This document shows, in pieces, positions 5,355-49,199 of a stretch of 64,000 nucleotides of DNA. The notes beneath the pieces were generated by a model that had not been told where the DNA came from, did not search any database, and saw nothing but the letters and a program-made list of their open reading frames with translations. A program made the position numbers and the translations under genes. This DNA comes from Escherichia phage vB_EcoM-673R5, in the sequence record ON470615.2. One strand, written 5' to 3'. The number at the start of each line of letters is the position of its first letter. Position 1 is the first letter of the stretch.

Positions 5355-6386
5355 ATGTCCAATTTACTGACCGTACACCAAAATTTGCCTGCATTACCGG
5401 TCGATGCAACGAGTGATGAGGTTCGCAAGAACCTGATGGACATGTTCAGGGATCGCCAGGCGTTTTCTGAGCATACCTGGAAAATGCTTCTGTCCGTTTG
5501 CCGGTCGTGGGCGGCATGGTGCAAGTTGAATAACCGGAAATGGTTTCCCGCAGAACCTGAAGATGTTCGCGATTATCTTCTATATCTTCAGGCGCGCGGT
5601 CTGGCAGTAAAAACTATCCAGCAACATTTGGGCCAGCTAAACATGCTTCATCGTCGGTCCGGGCTGCCACGACCAAGTGACAGTAATGCTGTTTCACTGG
5701 TCATGCGACGGATCCGAAAAGAAAACGTTGATGCCGGTGAACGTGCAAAACAGGCACTGGCGTTCGAACGCACTGATTTCGACCAGGTTCGTTCACTCAT
5801 GGAAAATAGCGATCGCTGCCAGGATATACGTAATCTGGCATTTCTGGGGATTGCTTATAACACCCTATTACGTATAGCCGAAATTGCCAGGATCAGGGTT
5901 AAAGATATCTCACGTACTGACGGTGGGAGAATGTTAATCCATATTGGCAGAACGAAAACGCTGGTTAGCACCGCAGGTGTAGAGAAGGCACTTAGCCTGG
6001 GGGTAACTAAACTGGTCGAGCGATGGATTTCTGTCTCTGGTGTGGCTGATGATCCGAATAACTACTTGTTTTGCCGTGTCAGAAAAAATGGTGTTGCCGC
6101 GCCATCTGCCACCAGCCAGCTATCAACTCGCGCCCTGGAAGGGATTTTTGAAGCAACTCATCGATTGATTTACGGCGCTAAGGATGACTCTGGTCAGAGA
6201 TACCTGGCCTGGTCTGGACACAGTGCCCGTGTCGGAGCCGCGCGAGATATGGCCCGCGCCGGAGTTTCAATACCGGAGATCATGCAAGCTGGTGGCTGGA
6301 CCAACGTAAATATTGTCATGAACTATATCCGTAACCTGGATAGTGAAACGGGGGCAATGGTGCGCCTGCTGGAAGATGGCGATTAG
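5355..6386 (+). CDS. cre: Cre tyrosine site-specific recombinase
   Basis: 343-aa ORF starting MSNLLTVHQNLPALPVDATSDEVRKNLMDMFRDRQAFSEHTWKMLLSVCRSWAAWCKLNNRKWFPAEPEDVRDYLLYLQARGLAV; adjacent to loxP. Confidence 0.97.
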   Translation: MSNLLTVHQNLPALPVDATSDEVRKNLMDMFRDRQAFSEHTWKMLLSVCRSWAAWCKLNNRKWFPAEPEDVRDYLLYLQARGLAVKTIQQHLGQLNMLHRRSGLPRPSDSNAVSLVMRRIRKENVDAGERAKQALAFERTDFDQVRSLMENSDRCQDIRNLAFLGIAYNTLLRIAEIARIRVKDISRTDGGRMLIHIGRTKTLVSTAGVEKALSLGVTKLVERWISVSGVADDPNNYLFCRVRKNGVAAPSATSQLSTRALEGIFEATHRLIYGAKDDSGQRYLAWSGHSARVGAARDMARAGVSIPEIMQAGGWTNVNIVMNYIRNLDSETGAMVRLLEDGD

Positions 6387-6404
6387 CCGTTCATTTGCGC
6401 TTGA

Positions 6405-6421
6405 TTGCTCTAATCATTTGA
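6405..6421 (+). promoter_or_regulatory. C1 operator
   Basis: ATTGCTCTAATCATTTG. Confidence 0.5.
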
Positions 6422-6436
6422 TATTTATGGTGACAC

Positions 6437-6748
6437 ATGCGGAAGGATTTCAAAATAGACGGAAAATATGTGGTGCTGTCTGTAAGCTCTCAAATTCAGT
6501 CACCATCTGTCATTGTCACCGTAAAGTTGAGCGATAGGATGCCTGATATCGACTCGATATCTGTTGCGTTCCCCGTTAAAAGTATGCGGAGTGCTGAACA
6601 TTTTGTGATGAATGCAACGGAGGAGGAAGCGCGGCGCGGGCTTACTAGAGTGATGGCGGAATTTGGCGAACTCCTGGGTAAGGTAAACAATGCCCTTTCA
6701 ATCAGTTCAGCAAGATCCAAAGCGTTAACAGCTTCCATGATGAAATAA
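6437..6748 (+). CDS. hypothetical protein downstream of cre
   Basis: 103-aa ORF preceded by a C1 operator, followed by hairpin 6752-6771. Confidence 0.4.
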   Translation: MRKDFKIDGKYVVLSVSSQIQSPSVIVTVKLSDRMPDIDSISVAFPVKSMRSAEHFVMNATEEEARRGLTRVMAEFGELLGKVNNALSISSARSKALTASMMK

Positions 6749-6751
6749 AAA

Positions 6752-6771
6752 AGCCTGGCAAGGAGCCAGGC
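6752..6771. terminator. hairpin, putative terminator
   Basis: AGCCTGGC-aagga-GCCAGGCT with A-run 5' on plus strand (T-run on minus). Confidence 0.35.
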
Positions 6772-6879
6772 TGCACAAAAGAGCGGGTTTGTATTCCGCA
6801 TCCAATCAATCAAGAAGGAGTATAGCACACAGGTACTGAAGTGAAAAAATGTGATTCGCGATTAACAAAATATCTACCA

Positions 6880-6896
6880 TTGCTCTAATTGATTGC
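6880..6896 (+). promoter_or_regulatory. C1 operator upstream of ref
   Basis: ATTGCTCTAATTGATTG. Confidence 0.5.
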
Positions 6897-6991
6897 TATA
6901 ATTAAGCCGCAGTTTTTGTCAACTACGAAGACGTTGCCATTACTTAACTCCTTGACATCATTGGCGGCCATTAGGCCGCCTTTTTTGCCAT

Positions 6992-7548
6992 ATGAAAACA
7001 ATCGAACAAAAACTTGAACAGCGCCGCGAGTGGCAGAAGGCTGCCAGAGAACGAGCGATCGCTCGGCAACGGGAAAAGTTGGCTGACCCCGCTTGGCGAG
7101 AATCGCAATATCAGAAAATGCGGGATTCTATCGACCGCCGTATCGCTAAACAGAAAGAGCGCCCACCAGCCAGCAAAACGCGGAAAAGCGCGGTAAAAAT
7201 AAAATCTCGTGGCTTGAAGGGAGAACACCAACGGCGGAGGAACGGCGCATCGCCAATGCTCTTGGCGCTCTCCCTGCATTGCCTGCTACATGCATGGAGT
7301 AATATCTGAAGAGGTATCTCTGCACCATATCTCGGTCGTACCGCGCCGGGTTGTCACAAAAAGCAATTGCCCCTTTGTAGATGGCACCACCAGCATGCAG
7401 CACCGGCTGAAGTAAGAGAAAAATACCCTGGCTGGTCCCTGTTCATGCCGATGGTGTGGTTGGAGGCAAGAAAGAATTCACCTTGCTGAACAAGTCAGAG
7501 ATGGAGTTGCTGGCTGACGCCTATGAGATGGCAAACATCATGCACTAA
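6992..7548 (+). CDS. ref: Ref recombination-enhancement HNH endonuclease; several frameshifts
   Basis: N-terminus MKTIEQKLEQRREWQKAARERAIARQREKLADP...; C-terminal pieces ...EKYPWLVPVHADGVVGGKKEFTLLNKSEMELLADAYEMANIMH recoverable in other frames. Confidence 0.6.
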
Positions 7549-7988: not shown

Positions 7989-8353
7989 ACGGCAGGCCGG
8001 TACTAATTGAGGCAATGCAGATTTATAAGGAGCTGGAACGCCAGAAAGCAATCAAGTTACCGCGCAAGGAATCCGGCAAATACATTCTCCACCAAAGCAT
8101 CTTCGATTCCGAACACGATAAAAAAGGCGATGAATTTTTCAACATCAACTGGAGCGAAATAACGACAGAGCATGTTCTGACGTTACTATGTTGCTTTGCG
8201 ACGGAATACAACAACGTTGCCAGCGCCGACTACATCAGGGCAATGGCTGGAGAAGTTGAGGCCCGCCAAGAACCATCGTTACTAAGTCCACTGATTAACA
8301 TAATTCTGGGCACCCAGATACTGGAACAAAAAAAGTGCCGAAAGGGGTATTAA
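7985..8353 (+). CDS. hypothetical 122-aa protein
   Basis: ORF translationally coupled to 7737-7988; no recognisable motif. Confidence 0.45.
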   Translation: MNGRPVLIEAMQIYKELERQKAIKLPRKESGKYILHQSIFDSEHDKKGDEFFNINWSEITTEHVLTLLCCFATEYNNVASADYIRAMAGEVEARQEPSLLSPLINIILGTQILEQKKCRKGY

Positions 8354-8469
8354 CAGGCAAGCATAATTATTTTTAACAATTACATACAGTAATTTTGTGG
8401 TTACATTCTCCATTGATTTTCTAACCGCTTTATCATTAGATGTAACAGCATGTAAATCATTTAAAATGG

Positions 8470-9578
8470 ATGAAAGCAATGGGGAATGAAGTTTATCAAA
8501 GTCAAAAATGCAAGTTGAAATATTCAAAATCTCAAATTGATAGGGCTGCTCAATTGATAAGGCACGGGTGTAGTGACGAAGAAAGGCAGCAATCTATTGA
8601 AATGATACAAAATTTCCGTGAGCTGCATCTTTATCCATTAATGCTCATGAAAAATCATTTAGCAAGAGCAGCTGCTAAGGTTGACAAGGACAAAAAGATT
8701 CTCGTTGCAAGAAGACTTAAGCGACTTTCTACCATAATAGATAAACTAGAGCGTCCTAGTCTTGATGGAGGCAGAACTAGCAATGCAATTAAATTAACAC
8801 GGATGCAGGACGTTGGCGGATGTAGGGCCATTGTCAGAAACTTAGACCAGTTGATACAGCTAAAGGAACGTCTTTTAAAAAGCAAATCTGTTCATAGGAT
8901 TGTTAAAGAGTATGATTATCTTACTCCCAAAGACAGCGGCTATAGTGGAATCCACCTTGCATACAGTTGCTTCGATCAGAAGAGGATCAATATCCGTGGC
9001 GAAAAACAAAGATTGAGATACAGTTAAGAACTCAATTGCAGCATGCTTGGGCTACCAGCCTTGAAATAATTGATACCCTTGAAGGTATCAAGCTGAAAAC
9101 TTCAAGTGAAGGGCATCCAGAATGGAGACGATTTTTCTATCTAGCCGGATGTCTTGTAGCGCACGACGAAAAAGCCTGCACTCTTGATGAGCTAGTTGTA
9201 TCTCAGTATGAAGGCGAGCTTAAAGAGCTGGAACGGACTTTATCTGTACGGAGGAAACTAAGCACATACACCATCGCCTTAAATTTAACTTCTGACGCGA
9301 ATTTGATTAAGAAGTTGCCAAAAAATCATAAGGGGCATTACTTAGTAACAATGAGAAATGCAGAAAACAAGCCCAATACAAAAAACAAAAAAATGTTCCT
9401 AGTGTCTGTTCGCGCATTTAAAACAAAAGAAGCAGATGAAGCCCTTGAGGCCTTAAATAAAGACGATTCTAATCCTAATGTATTGATATCTGTTCTCGTT
9501 GCTACAGATAACATTAAGTCACTAAAAAAGCCTACCCCAACTATTTTGGCTCAACAAACCAGTTTACAAAATTCTTAG
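8470..9578 (+). CDS. fused RelA/SpoT-domain toxin (toxSAS, CapRel-like); frame broken once in an A5 run near 9005
   Basis: ORFs 8470-9027 and 8967-9578 join to about 369 aa; RelA/SpoT synthetase motifs (DVGGCRAIV, GYSGIHLAY, EIQLRTQLQHAWA); AT-rich vs flanks. Confidence 0.65.
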
Positions 9579-9610
9579 ATAAGCATCTTCGTAACGAAGG
9601 ATAGTTGCTT

Positions 9611-9640
9611 AATTTTGCCCGGTAATTCCGGGCAAAATTG
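9611..9640. terminator. bidirectional intrinsic terminator
   Basis: TTTTGCCCGG-taatt-CCGGGCAAAA 10-bp perfect stem with A/T tracts on both sides, between convergent genes. Confidence 0.6.
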
Positions 9641-9889
9641 TCAATCTGCATTCAGGAGCAATGCGTTATCTATGATGATCTGCTCCCATTCTTCGAATGC
9701 CCGATCGCGGACGCCCTGGGGAACACTGTTAGTTTTGAAATCGACCACCGTCCGCCATTTCCCGTCCGGGCGGTACATGCGCAGAGCTTTACTTCCCCCT
9801 TCCCTGCGCACCTCAACGTTATGCTTATCAGCAAACTCTTGTAATGCTCGTAGCGTCCCATGCTTTACTGTGTAGTATCGCTTTTTCAA
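9641..9889 (-). CDS. 82-aa protein, Lxc/Bof-like by size and position
   Basis: 82-aa ORF downstream of darB operon genes; P1 lxc(bof) is 82 aa at the equivalent map position. Confidence 0.4.
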   Translation of the reverse strand: MKKRYYTVKHGTLRALQEFADKHNVEVRREGGSKALRMYRPDGKWRTVVDFKTNSVPQGVRDRAFEEWEQIIIDNALLLNAD

Positions 9890-21215: not shown

Positions 21216-21225
21216 CCACCAAAAA

Positions 21226-21252
21226 TAACCCCGGCAGCTGCCGGGGTTCTCG
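21226..21252. terminator. bidirectional terminator
   Basis: Perfect palindrome ACCCCGGCAGCTGCCGGGGT followed by TCTCGTT. Confidence 0.5.
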
Positions 21253-22189: not shown

Positions 22190-22206
22190 ATTGCTCTAAT
22201 TAATTT
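22190..22206 (+). promoter_or_regulatory. C1 operator upstream of ssb
   Basis: ATTGCTCTAATTAATTT. Confidence 0.5.
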
Positions 22207-22225: not shown

Positions 22226-22714
22226 GTGGCACAACGCGGTGTAAACAAAGTCATCCTGATTGGTACCCTGGGGCAAGACCCGGAGATCAGGTATATACCA
22301 AATGGCGGAGCGGTCGGAAGACTCAGCATCGCAACGAATGAATCATGGCGCGACAAGCAAACGGGCCAACAGAAAGAGCAAACAGAATGGCATAGAGTCG
22401 TTTTGTTCGGGAAACTTGCTGAAATTGCGAGTGAGTATTTACGAAAAGGTTCTCAGGTCTACATCGAAGGGAAACTTAAAACCCGTAAGTGGACAGATGA
22501 CGCCGGTGTAGAACGTTACACGACGGAAATTATCGTCAGCCAGGGCGGAACTATGCAAATGATCGGCGCCCGCCGCGACGATTCACAGTCCTCAAATGGC
22601 TGGGGGCAATCAAACCAACCTCAAAACCACCAGCAATACAGCGGTGGCGGCAAACCTCAGAGCAGCGCCAATAACGAACCTCCAATGGACTTTGACGACG
22701 ATATTCCGTTTTAG
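22226..22714 (+). CDS. ssb: single-stranded DNA-binding protein
   Basis: 162 aa; OB-fold N-terminus, Gly/Gln-rich linker, acidic tip DFDDDIPF. Confidence 0.9.
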
Positions 22715-22752
22715 AGTTAACTTGTGAGTTATTTGTAAATAGTTCATACACA

Positions 22753-22781
22753 GGCCCCTGTTAATACAGGGGATTTTTATT
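22753..22781 (+). terminator. intrinsic terminator after ssb
   Basis: CCCCTG-ttaata-CAGGGG hairpin followed by ATTTTTATTT. Confidence 0.55.
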
Positions 22782-22962
22782 TCTAGTAACTATAAGAGGT
22801 GTTAATTATTAATTGACAATCTTTAGTGTTTCGCGCACCTTGCAAGTATCCAATATTTACTGATTGTGGATGCATAAAGAAGATCCACAGCGTTACAAAT
22901 TTGTATTTCTTTCTTCAGCAATTAAGCAGGCGACTTGCTCTATCCTGCCCAAAGGAACACGT

Positions 22963-24316
22963 ATGACACACTGCAAAGAAAATACTTGGTATGAGCGTCA
23001 AGGGTACAATACCACCCGCCCGAATGAGATAAGGTCGGAGTATGAACGTGATCTTTCCCGGTTAATCCACTCTTCCGCTTTTAGGAGATTACAATCGAAG
23101 ACGCAGGTGTTGGGATTGGGCGAAAGCGATTTCTACCGTACGCGGCTAACTCACTCTATGGAAGTAGCGCAAATTGGCGGCGGTATCTTGTCTCAGTTGT
23201 CTAAGCGCGATACAGATGAGGGGGTAAATTCTTACCTGACCCAAGCCTGATGCAGGCTATCTGCCTTGCTCATGATATAGGACATCCCCCTTCGGTCATG
23301 GTGGTGAGGTCGCACTAAACTACTGCATGAGATCCTATGGCGGCTTTGAAGGTAACGGGCAGACACTGCGTATACTCTCCAAACTGGATAAGTACACCGA
23401 AACCAATGGGCTGGATCCCACCCGTAGACTTATTTTAGGCGTACTGAAATATCCAGCAAGCTATTCAGAGGTCGTCAATGAGAGGGCTTACAGCCAGTTA
23501 CAGCCAAGAAGCAATGAGTGGTTGTTTAAATCATCCGAATTTAAGCCCCCGAAATGTTACCTGGACTCTGAGGAGAACACTGTTAGATTCGCACTCCAAC
23601 CTTTTGATAGTGATGATGTTAAGTTATTCAAAACGGTAAAAACTACCGCGTTGAATAAGCACAAGGAAACAATATATAAAGCACTGGATACAACGATTAT
23701 GGACTTGGCTGATGAGATATCCTACTCACTCCATGATCTTGAAGACGCAATTTCTCTGAAGATGATCGACAAAAAAATGTGGGAGGAGCACTTCGAGGAC
23801 AAATCCCATTTATTTGCAGCTTGCCAATGCGACTCGTTTAATCTAAAAGCCGATGATGTAGCTGAAAAACTGTTCGGCGAAAGTTATCTACGCAAGGAGT
23901 GCATAGGGACACTTGTTCATCTGATGATCACTAGCGTTAAGCTTGAAGTGCAGAACTCTGATTTCAAAAGTAAAATTTTACGCTATAAAGTGGCACTTCC
24001 TGCCGCGGTAGAAGAGTTACGTAAAGCCATTTTTGAGCTGGTTAGGAACAAAGTTATTCAGCACGAAAACGTCCAACTATTAGAGTTCAAAGGTCAGAAA
24101 CTGATTGTGGAACTATTCAATGTACTGGCAAATGACCCAATACGTTTTCTCCCGACAGAAACTCGAAAGAAATATAATCAAGAGGAAGCAAAAGGTGATG
24201 ATAAAAAAATGCGTGTCATTTGCGACTATGTTTCAGGCATGACAGATGATTACGCTACTCGACTGTATGAGAAAATATTTGTACCGAGAAAAGGCTCTAT
24301 TTTTGATAGACTCTGA
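22963..24316 (+). CDS. dGTPase-family HD phosphohydrolase (dGTP triphosphohydrolase-like); one frameshift near 23250
   Basis: Motifs [24 protein letters not shown] and [15 protein letters not shown] typical of Dgt-type HD hydrolases; ORFs 22864-23250 and 23327-24316; lower GC than backbone. Confidence 0.65.
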
Positions 24317-24482
24317 TTTTTTTCTATTATATAGTACGTAGCCGGGTTCCAGAACCGCATAAAATTAGATCTGGATATAATTCATTTAATTATCTGTTAT
24401 ATGCCAAACATAACGATATATAATAGTGGATTAGATGTTACAACTTGACGCAGAATAAATAGCTTTTATTGGCGCATGATGC

Positions 24483-24508
24483 AAACCCCGCAATGAAGCG
24501 GGGTTTTA
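24483..24508. terminator. bidirectional intrinsic terminator
   Basis: AACCCCGC-aatgaa-GCGGGGTT with flanking A/T runs, between convergent genes. Confidence 0.55.
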
Positions 24509-24523
24509 ACTGTGGTAAATGAG

Positions 24524-24892
24524 TTATAATCTTTTAATCAGGCTCTCAATATTAGTTGGTTCAAAGTAATGCTTATTAACCTCTCCATTTATGAGGAAAC
24601 CGTCTTTTAGTAGTCGGTCTAGCTCACGCTCTGCTTCTTTGTTGAACATACCTGGATATATTCTCTTGTACAACTGAAACGTACCATTCATATTCCTGTA
24701 AGCATTCTCAGCAATTTCAATGGAGATTTCATTTCCGGCGTTAAATACAGGAATGAATATCTCAAGAATATCATTCTTTAACTTCTGTTTAAGTTTCTTT
24801 TTTTCAACAATATTAGAATAAAAGATACCTAAAAAAAATGTGCAGATACCAGGAAGCCAATTATTAACGAAAACCTCAGACAAAGCGTCCAC
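24524..24892 (-). CDS. hypothetical membrane-anchored protein, AT-rich gene
   Basis: 122-aa ORF, N-terminal hydrophobic segment (WLPGICTFFLGIFYSNIV) then charged domain; GC visibly below neighbours. Confidence 0.45.
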   Translation of the reverse strand: MDALSEVFVNNWLPGICTFFLGIFYSNIVEKKKLKQKLKNDILEIFIPVFNAGNEISIEIAENAYRNMNGTFQLYKRIYPGMFNKEAERELDRLLKDGFLINGEVNKHYFEPTNIESLIKRL

Positions 24893-25098
24893 TATCTTAC
24901 TCCAGAGTTAAGATTGATTCTCATAACGCACAAACTCCGTTCAAGGCGATTTTTATATTACAAACTATACATAAACGCTGATCAATATCTCCAGATTTTG
25001 TGTGCCTGTGCATGAATATGCACTAATCATAATCGACCAGAACTTCCGTTAATCGCTAAACTCGAACGATTCTAGCCACATAGACGATCTGTTAGTAT

Positions 25099-25407
25099 CT
25101 AATATACAAACTGATCCACATGATCACCCAAATCATCGTCGTCGTCCTCATCGCCACCATCTACTGCTGGCCAATCAACAAACCAGCCAGCGTAAAGATG
25201 CAGCGTTCGGAGAACATCACTTGCGGGAGCATCAAGGGTGTTAACGAATCCCATATAGCTATTGGGATTTGCTCCAGCTATGGCTTCAGCGATCATGTCC
25301 TCGGTAATGTCACCGGAGATAATGCTTAAACGCCCGGAAACTTCTTCATTATCATCAAATTCGATAATGGCATCTCCACCTAATGGCGCTGCGATTTTAA
25401 TCTGCAT
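25099..25407 (-). CDS. acidic 102-aa protein (darA-operon distal gene)
   Basis: ORF ending in DGGDEDDDDDLGDHVDQFVY; overlaps next gene start. Confidence 0.4.
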   Translation of the reverse strand: MQIKIAAPLGGDAIIEFDDNEEVSGRLSIISGDITEDMIAEAIAGANPNSYMGFVNTLDAPASDVLRTLHLYAGWFVDWPAVDGGDEDDDDDLGDHVDQFVY

Positions 25408-26086: not shown

Positions 26087-28113
26087 TTGCCAGCGTGTCT
26101 GCGGGTTATATGAGAATCGCTTAAGTAGTTGGTCAAGCTGCTCAAGTTCTTCTTCACTGACATACCTTTTAGCCTCACCAATAATGCCAGGAGAATATTG
26201 CCGTTAGGATTAAACGCTCGCGAAAGGAAGAGTTTCAGCGCCCCCATGCCCTCCGATGCTTCAATATCACCAATAACCCGGTTAACAATGGCCGCACTCT
26301 TCGGATTAGCATCCGCCAACGCTCTGGCTACGATTTGCAGGGACGATACGACCTCACGCTGCATATCAGTCCTGATCTCATCAATAAACTCTGGCGTTAT
26401 GCCGTGCTCTTTAAGGATATCCCGGCCTTCCGCCGTTACCCCATCGATATCACCGACATGTTTATTAACACGACTTTGCAATGCCTTAAATGCCTTCAGA
26501 ATTCCACGGGCATCATCCGCTTTACTAACGGCCTTCCTGAATGCTGGCAAGAAGTCTGAGTTAACCTCATTTTGTTGATCGGCCCACTGAATGGAGGCTT
26601 CTTTCATCTCGTCCAGAGTCAGATCACCCAACGCGGTATGGTCTGTGAATATGAGCGACAACCTCTGAACCATTTCTGCCAATGGTGATGCCGAATGCGC
26701 CGCGCTAAGGAATGCTTTCACCCTGGTTGGGCGAATGGAAAACCAGTCAATAGCTGGTGGCATATCTCCGTTTTTTATCGCCTGCGCTATCTCGTCAAAG
26801 CCATCGCGCCCAAGGGAGGATGCGTGATTTAACAAGCCGCGAAGTAACGAATTGCTGATACCGAATAATCGGCACCATTTTTTCACGTCGGCAACAGGCA
26901 TTCGAACAAAATGCGCAAGCACTTGTACAAGCTGTTCATCCTGGGGATCTGTGCGGGAAAGCAGCCTGATCAGATGAATAATGTCTTTGATGCCGGATGC
27001 CCGATGTAATAGCAAACTGGTATACGGAGCAACACCGTTGTAACTACCGCCGGAAACGGACTCGAAAAGACCGCCGGATATCCCTTGCATGCCTTCGTTT
27101 TCCAGTTCCTGAGACACCTGGCGAAGGATATCCTGTAACGACACATCGCCGCCGCCAAACATATCCCCCAGCGCCTGGCCCTGGTGCTGTAACTCATCAT
27201 TGATACGTTGAGCCATCAACTTAAAGGCGGTGGCCATACGCTTCGCGCTACGGTTATTCGCGACGATGAACAACGCGAGTGCTTTCACTTCCGGGGCCGT
27301 TTCGCTGAACATATCCCCCTGAGCAATAACATCGGTAATATGCTGGCCTGACTCCTTCGATTGCCTTACCAGGTCTACCGCATCTTTCAATGCCGCCAGC
27401 GCCATTTTATCGAGGCTATCTGCTGTCTCAATGCCATCAACAATAGTTGTCACAGCCTGCTTGTGCGCTTCTCCTGATAAAGCCTGCATCTGGACAAAAT
27501 CATTGGCTGCCGCATTAAGCGCCGTCAGAACATTACGCATATCCGGATCAGGTTCTTCTGCAACCATCCTTACCAGGCGCGCATCCTTATATGCCTTGGC
27601 AAAGATCGCGTTTTGTATACGGTCTACAAGTTGCCGTGTTGGTCGCCCATCTTCAGTTACAAGGCCAGCCGCCTGTGTGGCACCAACTTGCGTCATAAAT
27701 CCGCGAATAAACGCGTCATTACTGCGGCTAAGCAGATCTCCGCTTTCTGACGGGTTAAAAAGCGCCATCATCGCCGGTGTTATGCTGTCGGCATCAACAA
27801 AAGCTTTTTCACTGGCTGCCATTTCCTGAAGATCAGAAATATTTGAGTCCTTGGCAAACTGAACGCGGTCAACCTTAGTTAACCGGCGGCGCACCAGTAC
27901 CGGAGCCGTCATTGATTCAACCTTTTCAGGAGGTATGCCGAATTCGGTCGCATGTTCAATCAGGTACTCATGATACCGATCCGCATTGCCGTCCTGATAG
28001 GCTTTGATGATCCCCATGGTCCGTCCATTACCTGACTCAACGGCATTGTCCTCACCAATTATCGGCGCACCATGGCTGGATAAACCGGAATCAGTAAGCT
28101 GAGCTGGCCGCAA
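26083..28113 (-). CDS. large darA-operon protein (DdrB-like by position)
   Basis: 676-aa ORF; 5' end overlaps ORF 28059-28382 in another frame, so the true N-terminus may lie further upstream. Confidence 0.45.
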   Translation of the reverse strand: MRPAQLTDSGLSSHGAPIIGEDNAVESGNGRTMGIIKAYQDGNADRYHEYLIEHATEFGIPPEKVESMTAPVLVRRRLTKVDRVQFAKDSNISDLQEMAASEKAFVDADSITPAMMALFNPSESGDLLSRSNDAFIRGFMTQVGATQAAGLVTEDGRPTRQLVDRIQNAIFAKAYKDARLVRMVAEEPDPDMRNVLTALNAAANDFVQMQALSGEAHKQAVTTIVDGIETADSLDKMALAALKDAVDLVRQSKESGQHITDVIAQGDMFSETAPEVKALALFIVANNRSAKRMATAFKLMAQRINDELQHQGQALGDMFGGGDVSLQDILRQVSQELENEGMQGISGGLFESVSGGSYNGVAPYTSLLLHRASGIKDIIHLIRLLSRTDPQDEQLVQVLAHFVRMPVADVKKWCRLFGISNSLLRGLLNHASSLGRDGFDEIAQAIKNGDMPPAIDWFSIRPTRVKAFLSAAHSASPLAEMVQRLSLIFTDHTALGDLTLDEMKEASIQWADQQNEVNSDFLPAFRKAVSKADDARGILKAFKALQSRVNKHVGDIDGVTAEGRDILKEHGITPEFIDEIRTDMQREVVSSLQIVARALADANPKSAAIVNRVIGDIEASEGMGALKLFLSRAFNPNGNILLALLVRLKGMSVKKNLSSLTNYLSDSHITRRHAGK

Positions 28114-47884: not shown

Positions 47885-48019
47885 CATTGAGTGGGAATAT
47901 TGCCGTCCGGGAGTAATATGGTATCATTAAGTTAGAGTAGGTAGTGTAGATGGAATGAGGAGTATCATATGGTTATCACACAATCAGGTTGCTTTGAGTC
48001 AGGTTGTTTTGAGTAAAAC

Positions 48020-48050
48020 AATAAAACGCCCTTTAATGGGCGTTTTGTTA
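48020..48050 (-). terminator. intrinsic terminator
   Basis: AAACGCCC-tttaat-GGGCGTTT hairpin with T-runs on minus strand. Confidence 0.5.
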
Positions 48051-48078
48051 AAACTTAAATTGACTATCCTTTCAAATA

Positions 48079-48444
48079 CTATTTTAATTCTATGTAATTT
48101 TTAAATTCCCTCTCATATTTATACATGATGTTATCAAATCCTTCCATTACATCAACGAATTGTTGTGAACATTCCGGCTTCCAAGGCGTACACTTACGAA
48201 CCATATCCATTTTATTCTTATCCTTCGTTGTATCGACTAAGGATAGGTACCCTATAAAATTCATCATCTGAACAGGATCTTGATTTGTGAATATATATTT
48301 GACGTTTTGCTTAGTAGGTGAAAAAGAATCAAAAGCAGGGAACATATATTCACCAGAAAAAGAGAGTGCAGCATCAATGACGTCAGTTGCTGGAGTGCAG
48401 TTGCTCAGAATTGGCACTAACCTAAAATTAGCACCGGAGCACAC
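48079..48444 (-). CDS. hypothetical small protein, AT-rich islet
   Basis: 121-aa ORF, low GC. Confidence 0.4.
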   Translation of the reverse strand: MCSGANFRLVPILSNCTPATDVIDAALSFSGEYMFPAFDSFSPTKQNVKYIFTNQDPVQMMNFIGYLSLVDTTKDKNKMDMVRKCTPWKPECSQQFVDVMEGFDNIMYKYEREFKNYIELK

Positions 48445-48520
48445 TGCATATATATCATCCCTTTTTTTAGTTTTAACAGAGAGTTTTGTTTTGAATCCAA
48501 CACTTTCAATTTGATATAAT

Positions 48521-48889
48521 TTAGTGGCGTTGCATTTTCCCTGGAGTAAATAACTCTACAATTGGTTCATTATTCACCATTCTTATGGATTTTATTTCAC
48601 CATATAGAATTGAAATTGTATTCCATTTTTCCTGAGCGGCAAATTCATTATCTTTAAAATCATTAACCAACTCAGATGGAAAATGATAACCAAATTGATT
48701 ATTCATTGCTTTCGAGGCAAATCCAGACAAATAGAACACCCTTACTAAATCATAATCTTTTTTTGAAGTAGAAAGCCAATCTGGCAATTTATTATCAGCT
48801 ATCGCGCTTCCAGCAAAAATAGCACAACAAAATGTTATTACATTAAATAATTTCATTTTCCATTCACTCATTAATCGGTTTAAACTCAC
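48521..48889 (-). CDS. small secreted protein
   Basis: Internal start MKLFNVITFCCAIFAGSAIA looks like Sec signal peptide. Confidence 0.4.
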   Translation of the reverse strand: MSLNRLMSEWKMKLFNVITFCCAIFAGSAIADNKLPDWLSTSKKDYDLVRVFYLSGFASKAMNNQFGYHFPSELVNDFKDNEFAAQEKWNTISILYGEIKSIRMVNNEPIVELFTPGKMQRH

Positions 48890-49199
48890 TAATCAATTCA
48901 CCAAGACTATTTGGGTATGCTTTATAAATAACATACTCCGAAGAGCCATCTGAATATTGGTAAACACCATAACAAACCAGTTTATTTATTCCTTTCTGAA
49001 TAGTTTTTTGATTATAAGAATCAACCACTGTTATTCCATATGACGATAATATTTCGTTATATTCTTCAATAAGAGCTTTTCTTGTTTCCACTGAATTGCA
49101 ATCTACCTTCGAAAAGTCAACTTCATCAGCAAAAACATTAAATGTTAAAAAGGAAAGCACTAAAAACAAACGAATCAGCATAAATCCACTCCTACGCAT
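48864..49199 (-). CDS. small secreted protein
   Basis: MLIRLFLVLSFLTFNVFA signal-peptide-like N-terminus. Confidence 0.4.
   Translation of the reverse strand: MRRSGFMLIRLFLVLSFLTFNVFADEVDFSKVDCNSVETRKALIEEYNEILSSYGITVVDSYNQKTIQKGINKLVCYGVYQYSDGSSEYVIYKAYPNSLGELISEFKPINE

What the first reader, a model, noticed from the sequence alone, without database searches (positions are those of the whole stretch)
24509..25098. Very AT-rich gene for a membrane-anchored 122-aa protein next to the dGTPase
ORF 24524-24892 has markedly lower GC than anything around it, one N-terminal hydrophobic helix and a charged C-terminal domain, and is convergent with the dGTPase across a shared terminator. The composition suggests recent horizontal acquisition; small membrane-anchored proteins at such sites are often superinfection-exclusion or abortive-infection factors. 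It may function with the dGTPase or independently.
Basis: inference. Interest (0 to 1): 0.5.

Follow-up and report, generated by a model that had tools for sequence, protein, structure and literature searches.

The report
Orphan membrane-protein gene beside phage-plasmid dGTPase
A real, strongly conserved but uncharacterised 122-residue protein gene sits as an independent, horizontally acquired unit next to a known anti-phage dGTPase in the cargo slot of a P1-like phage-plasmid; its relatives are integron gene cassettes in marine bacteria, so it is a reasonable but untested candidate for a small phage-exclusion factor.

Summary
The ORF (24524-24892, minus strand, 122 aa) is real. It equals RefSeq WP_000339558 and evolves under purifying selection (dN/dS 0.07-0.14). 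Its GC is 33.6% against 47.6% for the window.

The window is a P1-like phage-plasmid. The ORF and an anti-phage dGTPase fill a 2.4-kb insert in the variable ssb-hxr slot, where P1 has IS1 and P7 has nmpC.

The two genes are not a system:
- ORF122 with about 65 nt of leader, its hairpin terminator and about 70 nt beyond recurs without any dGTPase in other enterobacterial islands.
- dGTPase relatives occur without ORF122.
- One sibling plasmid lost the ORF by an IS1 event and kept the dGTPase.

The family is tiny: 13 representatives among 1.84 billion proteins, and 7 of 185,579 species genomes. It has no Pfam, NCBIfam, PADLOC or fold match.

In Halomonas, Rheinheimera, Marinomonas and Vibrio it is a bounded integron cassette with a conserved attC. 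In Halomonas it lies beside intI.

The predicted protein has a marginally hydrophobic N-terminal helix, a lysine-rich stretch and a cytoplasmic helical bundle.

A defence or exclusion role is plausible from context and from published cassette screens, but it is not shown. Horizontal acquisition is supported; partnership with the dGTPase is not.

The parts
24524..24892 (-). ORF122 coding sequence. It encodes 122 aa with a GTG start: an N-terminal hydrophobic helix (about residues 7-29), a K-rich juxtamembrane stretch (30-40), the invariant ILEIFIPVFN motif (42-51) and a helical C-terminal domain.
   Evidence: WP_000339558.1; phrog_26730, 2.3e-77; alignment with invariant columns. AlphaFold2 mean pLDDT 74, helices 2-55, 58-78, 85-97 and 112-121; dN/dS 0.07-0.14.
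24900..24903 (-). Shine-Dalgarno GGAG, 7 nt upstream of the GTG start. It is conserved in the enterobacterial homologues.
24483..24507 (.). Hairpin AAACCCCGC-N6-GCGGGGTTT followed by T, a terminator-like element with A- and T-tracts on both sides. It lies 16 nt after the ORF122 stop and belongs to the ORF122 unit.
   Evidence: -18.1 and -20.1 kcal/mol, z -3.4 and -3.1; conserved after the homologues in E. coli MS6198, Proteus, Lonsdalea and a metagenome-assembled genome (MAG); split by an IS remnant in Salmonella; not called by the strict consensus scan.
24416..24965 (-). The conserved mobile unit: about 65 nt of leader, ORF122, the hairpin and about 70 nt beyond. It recurs at 78-81% nucleotide identity in unrelated chromosomal islands.
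   Evidence: blastn limits 549/553 to 1080/1085 in reverse-complement coordinates; alignment A2..
24966..25098 (.). Spacer between the hxr/odaA stop and the ORF122 unit. It is found neither in P1 nor in the other ORF122 contexts. It holds a weak sigma-70-like match (TGGAGA-18-TATAGT, 24993-24964) and the palindrome GTGCAT-N4-ATGCAC (25008-25023). In some sibling plasmids IS1 replaces everything upstream of the start codon.
22963..24316 (+). Anti-phage dGTPase gene, 451 aa in sibling plasmids. In this window it is interrupted by two 1-nt deletions, in a G6 run (about 23220) and a C6 run (about 23286). It is a neighbour of ORF122, not a partner.
22713..25100 (.). The 2.4-kb cargo insert in the ssb-hxr variable slot of the P1 backbone. 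P1 carries IS1 with isaA and isaB here; P7 carries nmpC.
   Evidence: P1/P7 similarity stops at about 22712 and resumes at about 25100. P7 annotation; 52 plasmids with the whole block at 99% identity or more. GC 39.7%.
25099..25407 (-). hxr/odaA, a 102-aa P1 backbone gene upstream of ORF122 on the same strand. It is unrelated to the 111-aa gene that precedes ORF122 homologues in other islands.

Best explanation
ORF122 is an autonomous, horizontally mobile accessory gene. It landed, with its own ribosome-binding site and hairpin terminator, next to a single-gene dGTPase defence system in the cargo slot between ssb and hxr of a P1-like phage-plasmid. It belongs to a very small orphan family of Gammaproteobacteria. 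In marine genera the family circulates as a roughly 600-bp integron cassette. In enterobacteria it circulates as an attC-less unit in genomic islands, plasmids and this phage-plasmid lineage.

The product is most likely a bitopic inner-membrane protein. It would have a short acidic N-terminus outside, one helix through the membrane, a lysine-rich stretch and a roughly 90-residue helical bundle in the cytoplasm.

My committed guess for function is lysogenic-conversion cargo that protects the carrier cell from other phages at the inner membrane. It could do this by hindering DNA entry, or by acting as a small membrane-perturbing abortive-infection effector. It would work on its own and add to, rather than cooperate with, the dGTPase.

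Shown: the gene is real and constrained; it is foreign; it is independent of the dGTPase; its relatives are integron cassettes.
Inferred: membrane topology.
Speculative: the anti-phage role and its mechanism.
For: Real gene:
- Annotated in RefSeq.
- dN/dS 0.07-0.14 across pairs with dS 0.6-1.9.
- 25 invariant columns over 23 sequences of 55-96% identity.

Foreign cargo in a variable slot.

Independence from the dGTPase:
- Homologue contexts in Salmonella and E. coli islands, an Enterobacter plasmid, Yersinia, Vibrio, Marinomonas, Rheinheimera, Halomonas, Proteus, Lonsdalea and Dryocola contain no dGTPase.
- Chromosomal dGTPase relatives at 80% identity lack ORF122.
- The IS1 deletion variant keeps the dGTPase only.
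- The hairpin and leader travel with ORF122.

Integron cassette relatives:
- The Halomonas locus has an integron integrase (TIGR02249, 399 bits, cut-off 265) followed by a same-strand array with repeated GGCGTTAT cores. The homologue is the second cassette.
- In four genera, conservation starts exactly at G|TTATCTT and ends at GCGGCG|TT, with unrelated flanks. AAGATAAC is complementary to GTTATCTT.

Protein architecture.

Context favouring defence:
- Immediate neighbours include the dGTPase, a Tiamat/Mokosh-like 1589-aa helicase (TmtA 1e-41), an Mrr-type nuclease, an Eco57I-type enzyme and the PADLOC candidate PDC-S08 (1e-117).
[quoted passage not shown] About a third of those carry transmembrane helices, and their homologues also occur outside integrons without attC (10.1101/2024.07.02.601719).
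- dGTPase and other defence systems are common cargo of E. coli P1-like elements (10.1101/2025.09.12.675607).
Against: - No similarity of any kind to a known defence, exclusion or abortive-infection protein.
- Hydrophobicity of the anchor is marginal (Kyte-Doolittle maximum 1.39). No dedicated topology predictor was available.
- In integron arrays, adjacency carries no functional meaning, so part of the guilt-by-association signal is weak.
- No C1 operator and no convincing promoter lie upstream, so expression in the lysogen is unknown. The gene lies downstream of the late dar operon on the same strand and could be read through during lytic growth.
- The family is absent from all isolated phage genomes searched. 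It is too rare for a statistical test of defence-island enrichment.
- In some sibling plasmids IS1 replaces everything upstream of the start codon. This could either silence the gene or drive it.
Confidence: 0.4

Rival explanations
1. Cargo with a non-defence role. ORF122 would be a small membrane-associated protein that benefits the host or the element in another way, for example membrane or envelope stress adaptation, immunity or regulation toward a membrane protein, or plasmid-maintenance physiology. Its placement beside defence genes would only reflect that cargo slots and integron arrays collect all kinds of accessory genes.
For: - Most integron cassettes of unknown function did not score as phage resistance in the published screen (at least one third did).
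- Neighbours vary without pattern.
- There is no homology to defence proteins.
- The same P1 slot carries porin genes in P7 and JL22, so the slot is not defence-specific.
Against: - No positive evidence for any particular alternative function: no Pfam or NCBIfam domain and only generic helical-bundle fold matches.
- Recurrent adjacency to defence genes outside integrons, namely P1-like dGTPase, a Tiamat/Mokosh-like helicase island and an Eco57I island.
Confidence: 0.33
2. A phage-serving gene expressed late. ORF122 would be the last gene of the leftward dar/ddr/hxr transcription unit. It would help the P1-like phage itself during lytic growth or entry, for example as an anti-defence factor or by modulating membrane or lysis timing.
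For: - Same strand as hxr-ddrB-ddrA-darA and 206 nt downstream of hxr.
- No hairpin terminator was detected between them by the scan.
- No convincing promoter of its own.
- P1-like elements carry many anti-defence genes.
Against: - The same gene unit lives in chromosomal islands, a Rep3 plasmid and chromosomal integrons that are not phages.
- No isolated phage genome encodes it.
- It is dispensable in P1, P7 and most P1-like elements.
- Sibling plasmids with IS1 inserted directly upstream are cut off from dar transcription yet keep the ORF intact.
Confidence: 0.12
3. ORF122 is a functional partner of the adjacent dGTPase (sensor, regulator or membrane tether), making a two-gene defence system.
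For: - Adjacent and always together in 64 of 5426 complete E. coli genomes.
- One marine homologue also sits beside a nucleotide-degrading candidate defence enzyme, the PF06189 5'-nucleotidase / PDC-S08.
Against: - Convergent orientation.
- No dGTPase in any of about 12 other genomic contexts.
- dGTPase relatives occur without ORF122.
- The natural variant p5359h6_scFOS retains the dGTPase without ORF122.
- The dGTPase system is modelled as a single gene in PADLOC and NCBIfam, and it was described as such in 10.1101/2021.04.26.441389 (my own knowledge of that work; only lists the paper).
- The 99% or higher identity of all co-occurring copies means a single recent lineage, not repeated association.
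- The Marinomonas neighbour is simply the preceding integron cassette.
Confidence: 0.05
4. ORF122 is not a functional gene: a chance ORF in AT-rich spacer DNA, or a decaying remnant.
For: AT-rich sequence. No domain hits. An unusual GTG start.
Against: - dN/dS 0.07-0.14 with saturated synonymous divergence.
- Full-length conservation across at least ten genera.
- Conserved Shine-Dalgarno.
- Confident helical model, mean pLDDT 74.
Confidence: 0.02

Closest known systems
Integron gene cassettes of unknown function (gcu), including the 'BRiC' phage-resistance cassettes (Kieffer et al., bioRxiv 10.1101/2024.07.02.601719)
   Same: - The marine homologues are bounded cassettes of about 600 bp: one promoter-less ORF plus its own attC.
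- The recombination points are G|TT. In Halomonas an intI gene is adjacent.
- The ORF is small and has a predicted transmembrane helix, as about a third of the BRiCs do.
- Homologues also exist outside integrons without attC, as reported for BRiCs.
   Different: - The window copy has no attC and no integrase nearby. It carries a hairpin terminator instead.
- No phage-resistance phenotype has been tested for this family.
- I could not check whether any tested BRiC is a homologue. The family motif was not found in any paper text.
Phage 'morons' and superinfection-exclusion membrane proteins (T4 Imm and Sp, P22 SieA, HK97 gp15, lambda RexB, P1 Sim). These are recalled from general knowledge.
   Same: - A small protein with a predicted membrane anchor, encoded by a temperate element in a dispensable cargo slot.
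- Lower GC than the backbone, with its own terminator.
   Different: - No sequence, profile or structural similarity was detected.
- The predicted C-terminal domain is cytoplasmic, unlike the periplasmic-acting Sp or Sim.
- The family is mostly found outside phages.
- Prophage-state expression is not established.
Single-gene anti-phage dGTPase (NCBIfam NF041026; PADLOC dGTPase)
   Same: It occupies the same 2.4-kb cargo insert, and both genes have low GC for a P1 backbone.
   Different: ORF122 is unrelated in sequence and convergently transcribed. It has a separate evolutionary history and distribution.
PHROG phrog_26730 (unknown function)
   Same: Full-length match, 2.3e-77, positions 2-122 of a 122-position profile.
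   Different: This is a label only. The family has no annotation or characterised member.

Membership tests
Integron gene cassette | An attC recombination site (inverse core RYYYAAC and core GTTRRRY, imperfect inverted repeat) at the 3' end of the ORF, with cassette limits at G|TT | tested here: not met
   Window copy: no RYYYAAC...GTTRRRY pair at 50-160 nt on either strand of the flanks, and no flank similarity to the marine cassettes.
Marine homologues (met): conservation in four genera begins at G|TTATCTT and ends at GCGGCG|TT. AAGATAAC pairs with GTTATCTT, and GCGCA(G)CAT pairs with ATGTGCGC leaving one extrahelical G. Free-energy folding prefers an alternative inner stem.
Integron gene cassette | Location in an array next to an integron integrase (intI) | tested here: not met
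   Window: no intI-like sequence (tblastn).
Halomonas halocynthiae L026: intI at 6284-7249 (TIGR02249, 398.9 bits, cut-off 265). Seven exact GGCGTTAT cores lie on the cassette strand downstream, and the homologue is the second cassette.
dGTPase-based defence system (as a second component) | Conserved co-occurrence with the dGTPase across independent lineages | tested here: not met
   dGTPase is found beside the ORF only in the single P1-like lineage, whose copies are 99% or more identical. It is absent from all other contexts. dGTPase relatives occur without the ORF. An IS1 deletion variant keeps the dGTPase alone.
Known anti-phage defence or exclusion protein families (PADLOC-DB v2, Pfam, NCBIfam) | A significant profile match | tested here: not met
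   No hit for the protein. Across 23 family members, only 3 gave insignificant hits (E = 0.025) to a '2TM effector' model. DefenseFinder models were not available.
Superinfection-exclusion / abortive-infection membrane proteins (functional class) | Inner-membrane localisation | tested here: inconclusive
   There is one hydrophobic segment with a Kyte-Doolittle maximum of 1.39, followed by KKKLKQKLK. The segment is longer and more hydrophobic in homologues. AlphaFold2 predicts a 54-residue N-terminal helix whose first half protrudes from the bundle. No TMHMM- or Phobius-type tool was available.
Superinfection-exclusion / abortive-infection membrane proteins (functional class) | Expression from the prophage, and protection against superinfecting phage | not testable with these tools
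   Only a weak promoter-like match at 24993-24964 (9 of 12, no more than expected by chance). No C1 operator nearby. The phenotype needs experiment.
   No DNA match and no tblastn match in 50,697 phage records. P1/P7 similarity is interrupted exactly over 22713-25100.
PHROG phrog_26730 | A full-length profile match | tested here: met
   2.3e-77, 258 bits, residues 2-122 on profile positions 2-122 of 122. The family function is unknown.

The most novel reading that the evidence does not exclude
ORF122 founds a new single-gene anti-phage or exclusion family. It would be a bitopic inner-membrane protein with a cytoplasmic four-helix bundle that shuttles between chromosomal integrons of marine Gammaproteobacteria and enterobacterial defence islands and P1-like phage-plasmids. 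There it would stack with the dGTPase to give the lysogen two mechanistically unrelated layers of protection.
Probability: 0.3. Interest if true: 0.6.

Novelty: new member of a known kind. Interest (0 to 1): 0.4.

Why it matters
P1-like phage-plasmids are common in clinical and livestock E. coli, and their cargo slots spread resistance and defence genes. This work shows that one slot carries two independent units: a known dGTPase defence gene and an orphan gene.

The orphan family directly links integron cassette pools of marine bacteria with enterobacterial phage-plasmids and genomic islands. That is a concrete example of the cassette-to-island traffic proposed for small defence genes.

The gene is small, self-contained and present in 148 of 5426 complete E. 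coli genomes. Natural variants exist that lack its upstream region or lack it entirely. Its function can therefore be tested cheaply. A positive result would add a new minimal membrane-based anti-phage protein. A negative result would caution against reading every small membrane protein in a cargo slot as defence.

Tried and rejected
1. Two-gene system with the dGTPase: rejected on distribution.
2. Homology to hxr/odaA of the 111-aa gene that precedes ORF122 homologues in E. coli MS6198, Proteus and Lonsdalea: none.
3. Vibrio locus as a classical superintegron with repeated attC: no repeat family of 20 nt or more. The cassette limits are nevertheless the same as in Halomonas.
4. attC remnant in the window: none.
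5. Sequence or profile annotation: Pfam, NCBIfam and PADLOC on the protein and on all 23 family members, and a PDB sequence profile search, gave nothing significant.
7. Exhaustive profile search of 1.84 billion representatives found only 13 proteins and no distant annotated relatives.
8. Regulatory clues: no C1 operator near the gene, no Rfam family, and promoter-like sites no more frequent than in shuffles.
9. RNAalifold on the four marine attC sites found no covariation because the sequences are too similar. It chose an inner alternative stem. The canonical R/L pairing is by inspection only.
10. Literature: no paper mentions WP_000339558 or the family motif. The recent dGTPase structure paper does not discuss neighbouring genes.

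Full report
**What the window is.** The flanks of the finding match phage P1, P7 and other punaviruses at 97.5-98.5% identity. The pro-lyz-ssb genes lie on one side and hxr(odaA)-ddrB on the other. Similarity stops at about 22712 and resumes at about 25100.

In P7 this slot holds the porin gene nmpC. In P1 it holds IS1 with isaA and isaB. The 2.4 kb in between has no match in 50,697 phage records. It is present, at 99% identity or more and in the same place, in 52 plasmid records that are P1-like phage-plasmids of Escherichia, plus one Cronobacter. It is also on plasmids of 64 of 5426 complete E. coli genomes.

RefSeq annotates the block as an 'anti-phage deoxyguanosine triphosphatase' (451 aa) followed by a convergent hypothetical protein, WP_000339558.1 (122 aa). 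dGTPase cargo in E. coli P1-like elements has already been reported (10.1101/2025.09.12.675607).

**Checking the observation.** The ORF is at 24524-24892 on the minus strand, with a GTG start preceded by GGAG at a 7-nt spacing. Its GC is 33.6% against 47.6% for the window, the 1.3rd percentile of equal-length windows.

The flanking spacers are just as AT-rich, and three other places in the window are as low or lower. So the composition is unusual but not unique.

The neighbouring gene is a bona fide defence-type dGTPase (NF041026, 571 bits against a cut-off of 400; PADLOC 1.7e-148).

In this window the dGTPase reading frame is broken twice. All differences from a sibling plasmid over 8.5 kb, bar one substitution, are single-base deletions in short same-base runs (C5 to C4, C3 to C2, G6 to G5, C6 to C5, G3 to G2), and these also split lyz and ddrB. 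I read these as sequencing errors rather than pseudogenes. ORF122 itself is identical to the sibling copy.

The hairpin at 24483-24506 is stable (-18 to -20 kcal/mol, z about -3). Its T-tract is short, and the strict consensus scan did not report it.

**The gene is real and constrained.** A word-indexed search of 5.8 billion proteins found 34 clusters. An exhaustive profile search of 1.84 billion representatives found only 13. Only 7 of 185,579 species-representative genomes carry it.

All hits are Gammaproteobacteria: Escherichia, Salmonella, Enterobacter, Proteus, Lonsdalea, Dryocola, Yersinia, Vibrio, Marinomonas, Rheinheimera and Halomonas, plus metagenome bins. Identity to the window protein runs from 55 to 99%.

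There are 25 invariant positions, including the motif ILEIFIPVFN. Pairwise dN/dS is 0.07-0.14, with synonymous sites at or near saturation.

The family keeps 31-42% GC in every host, even where the surrounding DNA is 67% GC. That is the signature of a gene that keeps moving.

**It is not part of the dGTPase system.** tblastn with the dGTPase against every fetched locus hits only the P1-like plasmids. The other contexts are:
- A Salmonella/E. coli island with a methylase-like gene and an Eco57I-type enzyme.
- An integrase-bounded E. coli island, where the gene precedes a 1589-aa helicase resembling Tiamat/Mokosh proteins.
- An Enterobacter Rep3 plasmid.
- A Yersinia element, behind a giant polyvalent protein.
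- Marine loci.

Chromosomal dGTPase relatives of E. coli (80% identity) match only over the dGTPase coding region.

Within the P1-like lineage there are natural variants. In one set, IS1 replaces everything upstream of the ORF start codon. In one plasmid, IS1 has removed the ORF while leaving the dGTPase intact.

Nucleotide similarity between the window and the enterobacterial chromosomal copies spans about 24416-24965. That covers some 65 nt of leader with the Shine-Dalgarno, the ORF, the hairpin and about 70 nt beyond. The terminator therefore belongs to the ORF122 unit. It is only positionally shared with the dGTPase, whose stop codon is 166 nt away. In Salmonella a degenerate IS4-family element is inserted inside this hairpin.

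**Relatives are integron cassettes.** In Halomonas halocynthiae the homologue lies two genes from an integron integrase (TIGR02249, 399 bits, cut-off 265). It sits in a same-strand gene array punctuated by GGCGTTAT cores: seven exact copies on that strand downstream of intI, and 31 matches allowing one mismatch on both strands against 12.6 expected.

I aligned the Halomonas, Rheinheimera, Marinomonas and Vibrio loci. Conservation begins exactly at G|TTATCTT, about 70 nt before the start codon, and ends exactly at GCGGCG|TT, about 140 nt after the stop. The flanks are unrelated.

The 3' element starts with AAGATAAC, the complement of GTTATCTT. It is followed by GCGCA(G)CAT, which pairs with ATGTGCGC and leaves one extrahelical G. 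This is the canonical R''/L''-L'/R' layout of an attC site.

Thermodynamic folding prefers an alternative inner stem, and the four copies are too similar to show covariation. The attC assignment therefore rests on the boundaries, the core sequences and the integrase, not on a structure test.

In these genomes the neighbours are simply other cassettes: an Mrr-type nuclease, a PF06189 5'-nucleotidase that matches PADLOC candidate PDC-S08, and an LPO_1073/Vpar_1526 protein.

The window copy has no attC, and its N-terminus and leader differ from the marine form. Which form is ancestral cannot be decided here.

**The protein.** Residues about 7-29 are hydrophobic but contain N, P, G and S (Kyte-Doolittle maximum 1.39). 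Homologues carry a 5-10-residue longer and more hydrophobic version. The segment is followed by EKKKLKQKLK.

By the positive-inside rule (established knowledge) this places the C-terminal 90 residues in the cytoplasm.

No Pfam, NCBIfam, PADLOC or PDB-sequence match exists for any family member. The only label is phrog_26730, of unknown function.

**Regulation.** No C1 operator lies near the gene; the nearest is Op(ssb) at 22190. Promoter-like matches are no more frequent than in shuffled sequence, and there is no Rfam family.

The gene is on the same strand as the late dar/ddr/hxr genes, 206 nt downstream of hxr. Both prophage-state and late expression therefore remain possible.

**Interpretation.** Four things are firmly shown. 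The gene is genuine and under selection. It is foreign to the P1 backbone. It is an independent unit with its own terminator. Its relatives are integron cassettes.

The topology (N-out, C-in) is inferred.

The function is not shown. I favour a stand-alone protective role at the inner membrane, either exclusion of incoming phage DNA or a small abortive-infection effector, for four reasons:
1. The gene recurs in cargo slots and islands that hold defence genes.
2. A published functional screen found that at least a third of integron cassettes of unknown function give phage resistance.
3. In that screen, about a third of the resistance cassettes have transmembrane helices.
4. Their homologues are also found outside integrons without attC (10.1101/2024.07.02.601719).

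This is guilt by association plus a base rate, not a test. A non-defence cargo role is nearly as likely.

**Verdict.** The link to the dGTPase is coincidental, and the defence idea is plausible but open. The item is a new member of a known kind, a mobile accessory gene or cassette of unknown function. It has an unexpectedly clean integron-to-phage-plasmid connection and an easy experimental path.

Noticed in passing
window about 21896 (lyz), 22130, 23220 and 23286 (dGTPase), 26190 (ddrB); a further ddrB split near 28059-28113: All indel differences from the sibling plasmid NZ_CP027133 are 1-nt deletions in homopolymer runs. They split lyz, the dGTPase and ddrB into several ORFs. This is typical of assembly or sequencing error, so gene calls in this window should not be trusted at homopolymers.
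   Followed up: partly
window 47993-49185 and 8294-9647: These regions have GC as low as or lower than the finding (28.7-34.7% in 369-nt windows). They may be further foreign cargo in this phage-plasmid.
   Followed up: no
window 25008-25023: A perfect palindrome GTGCAT-N4-ATGCAC sits in the spacer between hxr and ORF122. This segment is found neither in P1 nor in other ORF122 contexts. It could be a regulator binding site.
   Followed up: no
window 1662, 4306, 4770, 4851, 6404, 6879, 17053, 22190, 49430, 51101: Ten matches (3 mismatches or fewer) to the P1 C1 repressor operator consensus, against 0.33 expected by chance. They include Op(ssb) at 22190-22206. None lies near the dGTPase or ORF122.
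   Followed up: partly
L003-L006 6385-7580 (Salmonella / E. coli chromosomal island): A roughly 1.2-kb degenerate IS4-family transposase remnant is inserted precisely inside the terminator hairpin that follows the ORF122 homologue.
   Followed up: partly
L026 6284-14450 (Halomonas halocynthiae DSM 14573): A chromosomal integron: intI plus an array of at least eight same-strand cassettes with GGCGTTAT cores. Apart from the ORF122 homologue, the cassette products tested (107 aa and 243 aa) have no family match.
   Followed up: partly
L009 4889-5884 (Marinomonas sp. BSi20584): The gene preceding the ORF122 cassette is a PF06189 5'-nucleotidase that matches PADLOC candidate defence family PDC-S08 (1e-117). 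It ends at the GTTATCTT boundary, so it is probably itself a cassette.
   Followed up: partly
L021 3678-9920 (E. coli MS6198), L023 and L024 7464-7799: In an integrase-bounded E. coli island the ORF122 homologue is preceded by a conserved acidic 111-aa protein. That protein is also present in Proteus and Lonsdalea, where downstream genes differ. In E. coli a 1589-aa Tiamat/Mokosh-like helicase follows. The 111-aa protein has no family match and is unrelated to P1 Hxr.
   Followed up: partly
L001 918-1376 versus window about 21220-21237: The sibling plasmid NZ_CP027133 carries an IS200C insertion between the head-processing gene and lydD/lyz. This window lacks it.
   Followed up: no
window 22755-22772: A terminator-like hairpin (CCCCTGT-TAAT-ACAGGGG followed by a T-run) lies just after ssb, inside the insert. 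This suggests that the dGTPase is transcribed from its own promoter and not from the C1-controlled ssb promoter.
   Followed up: no
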